From IMG/VR virus record IMGVR_UViG_2585427751_000001: 17,049 nucleotides of DNA, one strand, 5' to 3'. Below, piece after piece: positions 6,001 through 9,000 of this stretch. Position numbers: made by a program. Source of the stretch: a virus (Duplodnaviria > Heunggongvirae > Uroviricota > Caudoviricetes). Each line of letters opens with the position of its first letter. The first letter of the stretch is position 1.

Positions 6001-9000
6001 TAAACACAAAAGACAAACTAACAAAAGACAATATAAAACCTTTTTCGTCCGAGAATTCTGGCGAATCCTCTGACCAGCCAGAAAACGACTTTCCTTTGGA
6101 GAAACTGGATGCTGCAATTCAGAGCGGCAGCAAGTGGGGGACAGCAGAAGACCTGACCGCCGCAGAGTGGATGTTTGACATGGTGAAGACCATCGCGCCC
6201 TCAGCCAGAAAACCGAATTTTGCAGGGTGGGCTAACGATATCCGCCTGATGCGTGAACGTGACGGACGTAACCACCGCGACATGTGCGTGCTGTTCCGCT
6301 GGGCATGCCAGGACAACTTCTGGTCCGGTAACGTGCTGAGCCCGGCTAAACTTCGCGACAAGTGGACCCAGCTCGAAATCAATCGTAACAAACAACAGGC
6401 TGGCGTGACAGCCGGAAAACCAAAACTCGACCTGACAAACACTGACTGGATTTACGGGGTGGATTTATGAAAAACATCGCCGCACAGATGGTTAACTTTG
6501 ACCGTGAGCAGATGCGCCGGATCGCCAACAACATGCCGGAACAGTACGACGAAAAGCCGCAGGTACAGCAGGTAGCGCAGATCATCAATGGTGTGTTCAG
6601 CCAGTTACTGGCAACTTTCCCGGCGAGCCTGGCTAACCGGGACCAGAACGAACTGAACGAAATCCGCCGCCAGTGGGTTCTGGCTTTCCGGGAAAACGGG
6701 ATCACCACAATGGAACAGGTTAACGCAGGAATGCGCGTAGCCCGTCGGCAGAATCGACCATTCCTGCCATCACCCGGGCAGTTTGTAGCCTGGTGCCGGG
6801 AAGAAGCATCCGTTATTGCCGGACTACCAAACACCAGCGAGCTGGTTGATATGGTTTACGAGTATTGCCGGAAGCGTGGCCTGTATCCAGATGCAGAGTC
6901 TTATCCATGGAAATCAAACGCGCACTACTGGTTGGTTACCAACCTGTACCAGAATATGCGGGCCAATGCGTTGACTGACGCGGAATTACGGCGCAAGGCT
7001 GCCGATGAACTGTCCTGTATGAACGCGCGAATTAACCGTGGTGAGGCTATACCTGAACCAGTAAAACAACTTCCTGTCATGGGCGGTAGACCTCTAAATC
7101 GTGCACAGGCTTTGGCGAAGATCGCAGAAATCAAAGCTAAGTTCGGACTGAAAGGAGCAAGTGTATGACGGGCAAAGAGGCAATTATTTATTACCTGGGG
7201 ACGCATAAGAGCTTCTGTGCGCAGGACGTTACCGCGGTAACAGGCGCAACAGTAACCAGCATAAATCAGGCTGCGGCTAAAATGGCGCGGGCAGGAATCC
7301 TGGTCATTGATGGTAAGGTCTGGCGAACGGTGTATTACCGGTTCGCTACCAGAGAAGAACGGGAAGGAAAGGTGAGCACGAATCTGATTTTTAAGGAGTG
7401 TCGCCAGAGTGCCGCGATGAAGCGGGTGTTGGCGGTATATGGGAGGACTACAGCATAAGCATAACTTATGGATTATATGGAAAACTGGTAATTATGCTCT
7501 TTTCTTATGAAAATAAAGAGAAGTTTTCGCTGGCGTTTTATTTGTTCTGTTTTTTCTTGCGGGTTATTCTGATTTGTTTTGATTTGATTTTTTCTGACAA
7601 AAGTAGGGAAAAAATATGTCGCAAGTACTTTCTGTCTTTACCTCCTAAATTACATTCTCTATCAAATGTTGCCATAGTTATGACCCCAGTTTTATATAGT
7701 GTTTCAGCAATTTTTCTGTAGTTTTTTTCTCGCAAAATTGAAGAGTTTTTCTTTGCTGTATTTTCAAGGCTATCTCCTTGTGGTTTAAGACTATTTGGGC
7801 CAAAAAACGTTGTGGATACTGCTGCACTTGTTGTCCGTTTTTTTTGGCCCATTTGGATAGTACTTGGGAGAGGCATGATTTTAATACGCATATAAATAAC
7901 TCCTCTATCAATTGGATTTTGGGAAAATGTTAACATTAATCATGATTAAGGAGTAATTTTAAATCTTCCAATAAAATTTGTTTAAACTCTTGTGTTCTAT
8001 GATCGATATACAACGCAAGTTTGCTTGCATTATCTTCCAGGTCACGTATCTCTCTGTCACCTCGAATAAACCCAACTAAATTTAAACGTTTAGATAGTTC
8101 AGAACTTCCTTCTATGGCATCTTGGAGTATTTGAATGATTTCTGAATTCATTGAGCGCCCGTTTCGTTTGGCTCGTTCAGCTATAGCTTCACGCATCCCA
8201 TCGGGGAAACGGAGGTTAAACTTATCGTAGTCTTTTACTTGTTTGTCAGCCATTGGAACCCCCAAAAAAATGAATGGTGCCATATTGCCACATCAATTCA
8301 ATGGTGGCATTATGGCCTCATGGTGTCATTGTGGCCTCATGAGGTTATGTCAATGGAAAAGAAAGAGGTAAAAATTACCCTTCGCTATCCGCAAAAAGTG
8401 AAGGATGAATTCAAGCGAATTGCTCAGGAGGAAGGGATGTCTGAGAACGCAGCTATTGTTCAGGCGCTTGTATGGGCATTGAAATTTAGAGCACGGATAC
8501 ATGCTCGCTAGAAACAGCGAAGCCCCACTGGCGGCAACCTTAGGGGCTTCTATCGAAAATAACCGCGAAGGAAATATCGACATGAGTATTGTAGCAACAT
8601 CAGATCTGAACTTCCAAGGTGAAGCACTAGTGCCAGTGGCAAATATTGCCGGAATATGGCTAACTTCATCCAACCTAGCAAGAGCACTGAAGTATTCGAA
8701 TAGTCGCGCAGTCACGATGATTTACAACAAATATGCTGACGAATTTTCCAGTAGTATGACTAGAGTGCTTGAAGTCAGTACCTCAGAGAATGATGTCGAG
8801 GTACTTGATCTGAGTACCTCGAAAAGTACTCGAAACTTGAAGAAGAAAGTACGTGTTTTCTCTCTCCGCGGAGCCCATTTGATCGCCATGTTCGCCCGCA
8901 CTCCTGTAGCCAAAGAGTTCCGCCGTTGGGTTCTGGATATTCTCGATCGAGAAGTTCAACAATCCCCAATCATAAAACAATTCACTGATAACGAACTTTG

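What the first reader, a model, noticed from the sequence alone, without database searches (positions are those of the whole stretch)
8254..8352. Three direct operator repeats between the mnt-like and arc-like genes
ATGGTGCCATATTGCCACA, ATGGTGGCATTATGGCCTCA and ATGGTGTCATTGTGGCCTCA (two in tandem) fill the divergent promoter region. The direct-repeat arrangement differs from the palindromic operators I would expect for Arc/Mnt-type repressors, suggesting either cooperative tandem binding or a distinct recognition mode.
Basis: seen in the sequence. Interest (0 to 1): 0.4.

Follow-up and report, generated by a model that had tools for sequence, protein, structure and literature searches.

The report
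Three Mnt-type operators over antirepressor promoter
The three repeats are real and are most likely three binding sites for the phage's Mnt-like repressor laid over the promoter of an antirepressor operon; this is a three-site variant of the classic phage P22 immI switch, not a new way of recognising DNA.

Summary
ATGGTGNCAT occurs three times in 17 kb, all within 8274-8329 on one strand (0.2 expected). Two units form a 19-bp tandem.

The window is Escherichia phage PhiR5_1. The locus is a P22 immI-type "ant moron": a Mnt-like gene on the left, Arc-like and Ant genes on the right, and a sar-like antisense RNA.

About 45 distinct homologous intergenic regions, aligned on the conserved rightward promoter, all show three sites with the skeleton NNNNNCA-N3-TGNNNNN. 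P22's O_mnt fits it too.
- O1 covers the -35.
- O2 covers the -10.
- O3 starts about 6 nt after the -10, within 2 bp of the P22 O_mnt position.

In relatives these sites are 7-8/8 palindromes. In this window the dyad symmetry is weak (5/8, 5/8, 4/8). O1 fits better as an inverted copy of O2.

Half-site bases track the Mnt-like beta-strand residues, not the Arc-like class. The Mnt DNA-binding domain and the three sites also move as one mosaic block.

I infer that Mnt-like tetramers at three operators shut off the arc-ant promoter. I found no separate Arc operator.

"Operators" is plausible. A "distinct direct-repeat recognition mode" is not supported. This is a new variant of a known kind, of modest interest.

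The parts
7936..8253 (-). Mnt-like repressor gene (105 aa): N-terminal ribbon-helix-helix domain with beta strand KFNLRFP, plus an unrelated C-terminal part of about 50 aa
   Evidence: ORF. Pfam Arc 5e-20. 47% identity to P22 Mnt over 49 aa. Best solved-structure hit 1mnt, E 1.7e-8. The C-terminal helices in the AlphaFold2 model have low confidence.
8264..8270 (+). A7 tract upstream of the rightward -35. It may be an UP-like element, and on the other strand it is the T-run in the mnt leader ahead of the GGGGG Shine-Dalgarno sequence.
   Evidence: Read from the sequence. A similar A-run is present in class A relatives. The function is inferred.
8276..8292 (.). It overlaps the rightward -35 and candidate leftward -10 elements. 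It is in inverted orientation relative to O2.
   Evidence: An equivalent site is present in all relatives, with the -35 hexamer forming its right arm.
8285..8313 (+). P_ant-like rightward promoter: -35 TTGCCA (8285-8290), 17-nt spacer, TG-extended -10 CATTAT (8308-8313). Predicted start about 8320.
   Evidence: Promoter scan, 9/12 plus TG. The same TTGACA-16/17-(C/T)A(T/A)A(A/T)T arrangement aligns in all ~45 distinct homologous regions and in P22. The transcription start is inferred.
8274..8329 (-). Span holding three weak candidates for the leftward P_mnt. (a) ATGCCA-17-CAATAT, with -35 at 8310-8305 and -10 at 8287-8282. (b) TTGAAT-16-CACCAT, with -35 at 8301-8296 and -10 at 8279-8274. (c) ATGACA-17-CACCAT, with -35 at 8329-8324 and -10 at 8306-8301.
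   Evidence: My own scoring. None reaches the 9/12 threshold of the standard scan. The geometry of (b) recurs in most classes. Unresolved.
8303..8319 (.). O2: GGTGGCA-TTA-TGGCCTC, the core of repeat 2 (8301-8320). Its central N3 lies inside the -10 hexamer.
8322..8338 (.). O3: GGTGTCA-TTG-TGGCCTC, the core of repeat 3 (8320-8339). The repeat begins 6 nt after the -10 and covers the predicted start. This is within 2 bp of the position of O_mnt in P22.
8353..8511 (+). Arc-like repressor gene (52 aa, beta strand KITLRYP). GAGG Shine-Dalgarno sequence at 8341-8344.
   Evidence: Pfam Arc 9.5e-5; 36% identity to P22 Arc.
8516..8580 (-). sar-like antisense RNA spanning the arc-ant gap and the ant ribosome-binding site, with two hairpins.
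   Evidence: Rfam sar RF00262, 34 bits (gathering score 43), E 4.8e-5. Fold -25.7 kcal/mol, z -3.15.
8588..8617 (-). P_sar-like promoter: TTGGAA-18-TACAAT with TG.
   Evidence: Promoter scan. Its position fits the 5' end of the sar-like match.
8582..9250 (+). Antirepressor (Ant) gene, 222 aa: Bro-N domain plus P22 antirepressor C-terminal domain.
   Evidence: Pfam P22_AR_C 1.7e-16 and Bro-N 4.9e-9. GenBank annotates it as 'Rha protein' from 8501. I chose the start at 8582 from the Shine-Dalgarno sequence and the sar overlap.

Best explanation
The 99-bp gap is the control region of a P22 immI-type antirepressor module. It carries a rightward arc-ant promoter (-35 at 8285-8290, extended -10 at 8308-8313) and an overlapping weak leftward mnt promoter.

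The three repeats are three 17-bp operators of the P22 O_mnt type: two 7-bp arms ending in CA and TG, around a 3-bp centre. The half-site is roughly GGTGNCA.

I infer the following, none of it shown:
- The Mnt-like protein binds them, one tetramer (two RHH dimers) per operator as in P22.
- O3 blocks the start site. O2 blocks the -10. O1 blocks the -35.
- In a lysogen this keeps arc and ant silent.
- Occupancy of O1 and O2 also limits the mnt promoter that overlaps them (autoregulation).

On infection no Mnt is present, so the promoter fires. Arc, and a sar-like antisense RNA over the ant ribosome-binding site, then damp Ant synthesis.

Shown here: the sequences, their positions relative to conserved promoter hexamers, their conservation, and their co-variation. 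Inferred: binding, stoichiometry and regulatory outcome.
For: 1. The repeats are non-random and confined to this gap.
2. The flanking proteins are Mnt-like and Arc-like. Ant and a sar-like RNA follow, giving the P22 immI gene order.
3. About 45 distinct homologous intergenic regions come from E. coli, Stx phages, Edwardsiella GF-2, Photorhabdus, Xenorhabdus, Klebsiella and uncultivated viral contigs. Aligned on the rightward promoter, all have three CA-N3-TG sites at the same places. O1-O2 is 26-27 bp and O2-O3 is 16-20 bp in most.
4. P22 O_mnt fits the same skeleton. It sits at the O3 position, 6 nt after the -10 in both phages, with site centres within 2 bp.
5. In relatives the sites are strong palindromes, 7-8 of 8 dyad pairs.
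6. Within each locus the three sites resemble each other, and the half-site changes with the Mnt beta-strand triad. K-first classes have G at -4 (0.69-1.0 of half-sites). R-first classes have A at -4 (0.67-0.83). M or T (in the R/T/R class) at the second position goes with T at -3, and V with G. By contrast, one Arc class (SFQLRLP) occurs with three different Mnt classes and site types.
7. Window 8116-8335, which is the Mnt RHH domain plus O1-O3, is shared at about 85% identity with Stx phages. Their Mnt C-terminus, arc and ant are different. The DNA-binding domain and the sites therefore travel as one cassette.
Against: - No binding data exist.
- Dyad symmetry in this window's own sites is weak (5/8, 5/8, 4/8). 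17 of 88 CA-N3-TG cores elsewhere in the window do as well.
- Co-variation with Mnt could partly reflect physical linkage, because the mosaic junctions lie between O3 and arc.
- The window's Arc-like protein (beta triad K/T/R) is found only with GGCA-type sites. It might therefore share these operators.
- The tetramer state of the Mnt-like protein is unknown. Its C-terminus has no similarity to P22 Mnt, and the AlphaFold2 model is unreliable (pLDDT 50).
- The leftward promoter is not pinned down; there are three weak candidates.
Confidence: 0.62

Rival explanations
1. The two repressors divide or share the sites. The Arc-like protein binds O1 and O2, which bracket the promoter spacer where P22 has O_arc. 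The Mnt-like protein binds O3, the P22 O_mnt position. Alternatively both proteins recognise all three sites.
For: P22 places O_arc in the spacer and O_mnt at +1. I found no other candidate Arc operator. The window's Arc-like beta triad K/T/R is close to the Mnt-like K/N/R. This Arc class was seen only with GGCA-type sites: 14 distinct loci paired with three Mnt triads.
Against: In other branches one Arc class (S/Q/R) is paired with GTCA-, ATCA- and ACCA-type site sets. The sites there follow Mnt, not Arc. Within each locus O1, O2 and O3 are of one type, so there is no sign of two specificities.
Confidence: 0.22
2. This is a genuinely directional, direct-repeat recognition mode. RHH dimers would line up head-to-tail on repeated TGGC or ATGG-N3-CAT sub-units, as with MetJ met-boxes, omega heptads or ParG boxes.
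For: In this subclass O2 and O3 share the same asymmetry: left arm GGTGNCA, right arm read on the other strand GAGGCCA. TGGC recurs with an 8-bp period. The ATGGTG prefix occurs only on one strand. RHH proteins that use direct and inverted boxes are known (PMC3413123).
Against: O1 is in the opposite orientation. Relatives with the same architecture use clear palindromes. TGNCA is self-complementary except at its centre, so direct and inverted readings differ by one base. The closest characterised homologue, P22 Mnt, binds a 17-bp dyad of the same skeleton.
Confidence: 0.08
3. The repeats are not protein-binding sites for a repressor. They are only the mirrored -35 and -10 hexamers of overlapping divergent promoters, which happen to look alike.
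For: O1 contains TTGCCA (-35, + strand) and CAATAT (-10-like, - strand). O2 contains CATTAT (-10, + strand) and ATGCCA (-35-like, - strand). The pair R3/R2 also makes a promoter-like ATGACA-17-CACCAT on the minus strand.
Against: O3 lies downstream of the -10 and is not needed for the rightward promoter. The arms outside the hexamers change between classes yet stay alike among the three sites of each locus. Promoter hexamers alone do not explain this.
Confidence: 0.05

Closest known systems
Phage P22 immunity I region (mnt, arc, ant, sar; P_ant/P_mnt; O_mnt and O_arc)
   Same: - Same gene order and orientation.
- Mnt-like and Arc-like RHH repressors (47% and 36% identity).
- Ant with the P22 antirepressor C-terminal domain, and a sar-like antisense RNA.
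- A strong rightward promoter overlapped by a weak leftward one.
- A 17-bp operator of skeleton NNNNNCA-N3-TGNNNNN starting 6 nt after the -10.

   Different: - There are three Mnt-type sites instead of one. The P22 positions equivalent to O1 and O2 show only 1/8 and 2/8 dyad pairs.
- No O_arc-like 21-bp dyad lies in the spacer.
- The Mnt C-terminal domain is unrelated.
- Ant is shorter (222 aa against 300 aa).
- The module sits between ren and ninB of a lambdoid phage rather than in the late operon.
Uncharacterised homologous modules in Stx phages (2851, Stx2a_WGPS8 and others), Edwardsiella phage GF-2, and prophages of E. coli, Photorhabdus, Xenorhabdus and Klebsiella
   Same: Same three-site layout on the same promoter. 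Stx phages share the Mnt RHH domain plus O1-O3 at about 85% identity. 301 of 5,426 complete E. coli genomes have a match.
   Different: They have different arc, ant and Mnt C-terminal parts, and different genome positions (tail-gene region in Stx phages and GF-2). Other classes have different half-sites. Public records annotate the genes only as 'Arc family DNA-binding protein'. I found no description of the operators.
Lambda O_R (three 17-bp pseudo-symmetric operators between divergent P_R and P_RM)
   Same: It works alike in layout: three imperfect 17-bp dyads of one type, spread over two divergent overlapping promoters. This could give graded repression and autoregulation. This comparison rests on my own knowledge and is an analogy only.
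   Different: Lambda uses helix-turn-helix repressors (CI and Cro) that compete for the same sites. Here the proteins are RHH. Cooperativity and the order of site preference are unknown.
RHH proteins on repeat arrays (MetJ met-boxes, ParG tetramer boxes, omega heptads)
   Same: RHH dimers bind several adjacent short boxes, and direct or inverted orientation is tolerated (PMC3413123).
   Different: Those arrays use short (4-8 bp) boxes at fixed short spacing. Here the units are 17-21 bp, and spacing differs among relatives (16-20 bp).

Membership tests
P22 immI-type antirepressor module | Divergent mnt and arc-ant gene arrangement | tested here: met
   Mnt-like gene at 8253-7936 (-). Arc-like gene at 8353-8511 (+). 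Ant at 8582-9250 (+).
P22 immI-type antirepressor module | Left gene has an N-terminal RHH domain homologous to P22 Mnt | tested here: met
   47% identity over 49 aa, E 1e-14. Best solved-structure hit 1mnt, E 1.7e-8. Pfam Arc 5e-20.
P22 immI-type antirepressor module | Mnt C-terminal helical tetramerisation domain | tested here: inconclusive
   No sequence similarity beyond about residue 54. The single-sequence AlphaFold2 model shows helices 35-63 and 68-102, but at pLDDT 50. The oligomeric state is not testable with these tools.
P22 immI-type antirepressor module | Small (about 53 aa) Arc-type RHH repressor as first gene of the ant operon | tested here: met
   52 aa. Pfam Arc 9.5e-5 (above the cut-off). 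36% identity to P22 Arc. Arc structures are the top solved-structure hits.
P22 immI-type antirepressor module | Antirepressor with the P22 Ant C-terminal domain | tested here: met
   P22_AR_C 1.7e-16 and Bro-N 4.9e-9. Antirepressor activity was not tested.
P22 immI-type antirepressor module | sar antisense RNA across the arc-ant junction | tested here: inconclusive
   Rfam sar gives 34 bits, below the gathering score of 43, at E 4.8e-5 over the full model length. A promoter-like site lies at 8617-8588. The two-hairpin fold has z -3.15.
P22 immI-type antirepressor module | 17-bp dyad O_mnt over the P_ant start site | tested here: met
The O3 17-mer core is 8322-8338, and its centre lies within 2 bp of the P22 position. 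It has the same CA-N3-TG skeleton. The dyad is weaker here, at 4/8 pairs.
P22 immI-type antirepressor module | Separate 21-bp O_arc in the P_ant spacer | tested here: not met
   The left half of the spacer varies even within one Arc class. No motif is shared by the nine loci with the same Arc class.
Tandem direct-repeat RHH operator arrays (MetJ, omega, ParG type) | Several short boxes at a fixed short period, each binding one dimer, usually in one orientation | tested here: not met
   The period is 19 bp and there are only two tandem units. O1 is inverted. O2-O3 spacing is 16-20 bp in relatives.
Lambda-type tripartite operator | Three similar 17-bp pseudo-dyads between divergent promoters, bound by helix-turn-helix CI and Cro | tested here: not met
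   The layout is analogous, but the proteins are RHH, not helix-turn-helix. This is an analogy of function only.

The most novel reading that the evidence does not exclude
A large, widespread family of immI-like antirepressor switches in Enterobacterales phages, including Stx phages, runs on a tripartite operator of a single type. In that case P22 would be the exception rather than the model. Either the Arc-like protein has no operator of its own and shares the Mnt sites, giving an RHH counterpart of lambda CI/Cro competition at O_R, or it acts by a mechanism other than promoter binding. The co-variation between beta-strand residues and half-site bases (K with G, R with A at -4; M or T with T, V with G at -3) would then be a readable recognition code for this RHH clade.
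Probability: 0.25. Interest if true: 0.5.

Novelty: new variant of a known kind. Interest (0 to 1): 0.3.

Why it matters
Antirepressor modules decide whether a prophage, or its neighbours, is induced. Close relatives of this control region sit in Shiga-toxin phages and in about 5% of complete E. coli genomes. If the three-operator reading is right, the textbook P22 arrangement (one O_mnt plus one O_arc) is not the common design. The natural variants would also offer a ready-made set of matched repressor and operator pairs for studying or engineering ribbon-helix-helix specificity. For this window alone, the result is mainly a correct annotation of an ordinary regulatory region.

Tried and rejected
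1. Chance: rejected by shuffle controls.
2. A separate Arc operator:
   - I compared promoter spacers grouped by Arc class.
   - I searched for gapped motifs (4+4, 4+3, 3+4, 3+3) shared by the nine loci that carry the same SFQLRLP-type Arc.
   - Nothing specific turned up. The only hit was ATCA-N2-TTG in 8 of 9 loci, which is the O1 left arm plus the -35.
3. Internal dyad symmetry from the window alone: not significant. The outer pairs give 8 of 18 (P 0.057), and 19% of background CA-N3-TG cores do as well. The palindrome argument therefore rests on relatives.
4. A degenerate half-site pattern G[GAT][TG]G.CA is not enriched window-wide (56 found, 50 expected).
5. Pinning down the leftward promoter: three weak candidates, none decisive.
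6. Structure prediction of the Mnt-like protein from a single sequence: pLDDT 50, unusable for the C-terminal domain, so I ran no fold search.
7. A fourth repeat at 8339-8356: only 6/19 matches by eye, rejected.
8. A LexA-type box (CTGT-N8-ACAG), as used by some antirepressor modules: none seen by eye in the gap.
9. The genome-contig scan with the Mnt-like protein returned only 6 loci. The viral scans were far more productive.
10. The primary P22 operator papers are not held in the library. Statements on P22 contacts and stoichiometry rest on my own knowledge and on the annotated record X01916.
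Full report
**What is there**

Tandem Repeats Finder gives a 19-bp period with 2.2 copies at 8301-8341. The shared 10-mer ATGGTGNCAT occurs three times in the whole 17-kb window. All three are here and on the + strand. Shuffles give 0.2 on average, and none of 200 reaches three.

The interval 8254-8352 is exactly the gap between two divergent genes. The 105-aa gene on the minus strand (8253-7936) matches Pfam Arc at 5e-20. It is 47% identical to P22 Mnt over its first 49 residues, and its best solved relative is 1mnt. The 52-aa gene on the plus strand (8353-8511) is Arc-like.

Next comes a 222-aa protein with Bro-N and P22 antirepressor C-terminal domains. Between arc and ant, on the minus strand, Rfam's sar antisense RNA model matches over its full length. 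The score is 34 bits, below the gathering score of 43, at E 4.8e-5. A promoter-like site lies in front of it, and the fold has two hairpins (z -3.15).

The window is 100% identical to Escherichia phage PhiR5_1, a lambdoid phage. The module sits between ren and ninB. It is therefore an 'ant moron' of the P22 immunity I type, a class described in the literature but studied experimentally only in P22 (PMC2629481).

**Direct or inverted**

Repeats 2 and 3 are a true direct tandem: 15/17 direct against 9/17 inverted. Repeat 1 matches repeat 2 better in inverted orientation: 13/17 against 10/17, and 15/21 against 12/21 for 21-mers.

Each unit can be written as two 7-bp arms around three central bases:
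- O1: GGTGCCA-TAT-TGCCACA (8276-8292)
- O2: GGTGGCA-TTA-TGGCCTC (8303-8319)
- O3: GGTGTCA-TTG-TGGCCTC (8322-8338)

The inner pentamer TGNCA is self-complementary except at its middle base. A direct and an inverted reading therefore differ by very little.

In this window the dyad symmetry is modest, at 5, 5 and 4 of 8 pairs. About a fifth of all CA-N3-TG cores in the window do as well. The window alone therefore does not prove palindromic operators.

**Relatives**

I collected homologous modules from several sources:
- Stx phages and Edwardsiella phage GF-2;
- E. coli chromosomes;
- Photorhabdus, Xenorhabdus and Klebsiella genomes;
- uncultivated viral contigs, queried with the Mnt-like and the Arc-like proteins.

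This gave about 45 distinct site triplets. Aligned on the best rightward promoter, every one shows the same plan. Each has a TTGACA-like -35, a 16-17-nt spacer and a (C/T)A(T/A)A(A/T)T -10. Each has three CA-N3-TG sites:
- O1, whose right arm is the -35 hexamer;
- O2, whose centre lies in the -10;
- O3, a few bases downstream of the -10.

In the window the promoter is TTGCCA (8285-8290), 17 nt, then TG-extended CATTAT (8308-8313). This predicts a start near 8320, the first base of repeat 3.

The P22 record X01916 has the same promoter. Its O_mnt, AGGTCCA-CGG-TGGACCT, starts 6 nt after the -10. It fits the same skeleton, and its centre lies within 2 bp of the O3 position. P22 lacks dyads at the O1 and O2 positions (1/8 and 2/8 pairs) and instead has O_arc in the spacer.

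In most other classes at least one of the three sites is a strong palindrome:
- ATGTCAT-T-ATGACAT in Xenorhabdus;
- GACATCA-TAA-TGATGTC (8/8) and GCATCA-AAA-TGATGC in the Klebsiella-type class;
- AAGGCAA-T-TTGCCTT;
- GCACCAA-G-TTGGTGC;
- GGCAT-A-ATGCC in the sister subclass of the window.

The window's own subclass is the least symmetric.

**Which protein**

Within each locus the three sites are of one type, and the type changes between loci. The half-site composition follows the three outward-facing residues of the Mnt-like beta strand:

| Mnt beta triad | Typical half-site |
|---|---|
| K/N/R (two unrelated N-terminal arm contexts) | GGTGNCA |
| K/M/R | (C/G)ATGTCA |
| K/V/R | GATGGCA |
| K/T/R | A(A/G)AGGCA |
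| R/T/R | (A/G)(G/A)CATCA |
| R/N/R | AGCACCA |
| H/N/R (P22) | AGGTCCA |

A K-first strand goes with G four bases from the centre triplet. An R-first strand goes with A at that position.

The Arc-like class does not predict the sites. The SFQLRLP-type Arc is paired with K/M/R, R/T/R and R/N/R Mnt classes and their three different site sets.

The mosaic structure points the same way. Window 8116-8335, which is the Mnt RHH domain plus O1-O3, is shared at about 85% with Stx phages. Their Mnt C-terminus, arc and ant are different. Many viral loci likewise match only Mnt residues 1 to about 50. In GF-2, O2 and O3 are almost identical 19-mers, differing only at the first base. That suggests duplication or concerted evolution.

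I conclude that the sites are most likely operators of the Mnt-like repressor. Two caveats apply. First, linkage could mimic co-variation, because the junctions lie just right of O3. Second, the window's Arc class (K/T/R) was only ever seen with GGCA-type sites, so it may share them.

**The missing Arc operator and the leftward promoter**

The left half of the promoter spacer, where P22 has O_arc, varies even within one Arc class. No gapped motif is common to the nine loci with the same Arc class, apart from the O1 arm plus the -35. The conserved CAAT in the spacer is best explained as the TTG of a leftward -35.

My scoring finds a recurrent leftward promoter geometry. Its -35 lies in the rightward spacer, and its -10 lies at or left of the O1 left arm. 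In the window this is TTGAAT-16-CACCAT with TG. Two other weak candidates exist. None passes the standard scan threshold. All candidates are overlapped by the operators.

**Mechanism proposed**

This is inferred by analogy with P22 (my own knowledge; the primary papers are not in the library). Mnt-like tetramers occupy O3, O2 and O1 and exclude RNA polymerase from the arc-ant promoter in the lysogen. Because O1 and O2 also overlap the leftward promoter, high Mnt levels should limit mnt transcription itself. After infection the unrepressed promoter makes Arc and Ant. Arc and the sar-like RNA then damp Ant.

Cooperative contacts between tetramers at O2 and O3 are possible. However, the centre distance is 19 bp here and 16-20 bp in relatives. 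It is therefore not kept on one face of the helix. The oligomeric state could not be assessed.

**Comparison and novelty**

The module meets most defining features of the P22 immI system. It fails one, a separate O_arc. It adds two extra Mnt-type sites.

Its layout is analogous to lambda O_R: three 17-bp pseudo-dyads between divergent promoters. It is built with RHH proteins, so this is an analogy and not membership.

It is unlike the short-box arrays of MetJ, ParG or omega (PMC3413123).

I found no paper describing this three-operator arrangement. Public records annotate the genes only as Arc-family proteins.

I rate it a new variant of a known kind. It has modest interest for the window itself, and somewhat more as a family-wide pattern with a readable protein-DNA co-variation.

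Noticed in passing
window 8516-8617 (minus strand): A sar-like antisense RNA matches Rfam RF00262 at 34 bits (below the gathering score), E 4.8e-5. A promoter-like site TTGGAA-18-TACAAT lies at 8617-8588. The RNA overlaps the ant ribosome-binding site. This arc-ant junction (about 8509-8593) is also 95-96% identical in several Klebsiella phages.
   Followed up: partly
window 8233-8255 and 8351-8373: A 23-nt inverted repeat (74% complementary) arises because the first codons of the two divergent genes are alike: MADKQVK in the Mnt-like gene and MEKKEVK in the Arc-like gene. This hints at common ancestry or gene conversion of the N-terminal arms.
   Followed up: no
window 8335-8344: A perfect 10-bp palindrome CCTCATGAGG joins the right arm of O3 to the arc Shine-Dalgarno sequence (GAGG). 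It is not conserved in the closest relatives, which have CCTCACAAGGAG.
   Followed up: partly
window 8116-8335, compared with L002 2501-2723: There are sharp mosaic junctions. Only the Mnt RHH domain plus the operator region is shared (about 85%) with Stx phages of the 2851/WGPS8 type. In those phages the module lies among tail genes, not between ren and ninB.
   Followed up: partly
window 8501-9250: GenBank annotates the Ant gene as 'Rha protein' starting at 8501 and overlapping arc. The Shine-Dalgarno sequence GAAGGAAA and the sar-like overlap favour a start at 8582 (222 aa).
   Followed up: partly
window 7460-7935: An AT-rich stretch lies between ren and the Mnt-like gene. It holds two small minus-strand ORFs annotated as hypothetical (about 7538-7675 and 7678-7827). 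A longer ORF through this stretch (7538-7936, minus strand) has no Pfam match.
   Followed up: no
window 9489-9995: A 168-aa ORF downstream of ant has no significant Pfam match. It may be further cargo of the same moron.
   Followed up: no
window 13723-14239: Three tRNA genes (13723-13795, 13806-13879, 13896-13969) are followed by a strong match to the sRNA family STnc100 (14049-14239, 139 bits). They lie downstream of the Q antiterminator region.
   Followed up: no
window about 2125-3698 (L001 2226-3799): The PhiR5_1 record annotates a HipA toxin and HipD antitoxin pair next to the cI repressor gene.
   Followed up: no
L060 and L063 (viral contigs): In this divergent branch the left repressor starts MKGMR..APFGLRMP, which resembles the Arc N-terminus. 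Only the O2 position carries a strong dyad (GGTGTAAT-G-ATTACACC, 8/8). It is flanked by distant inverted GATATCA / TGATATC elements.
   Followed up: no
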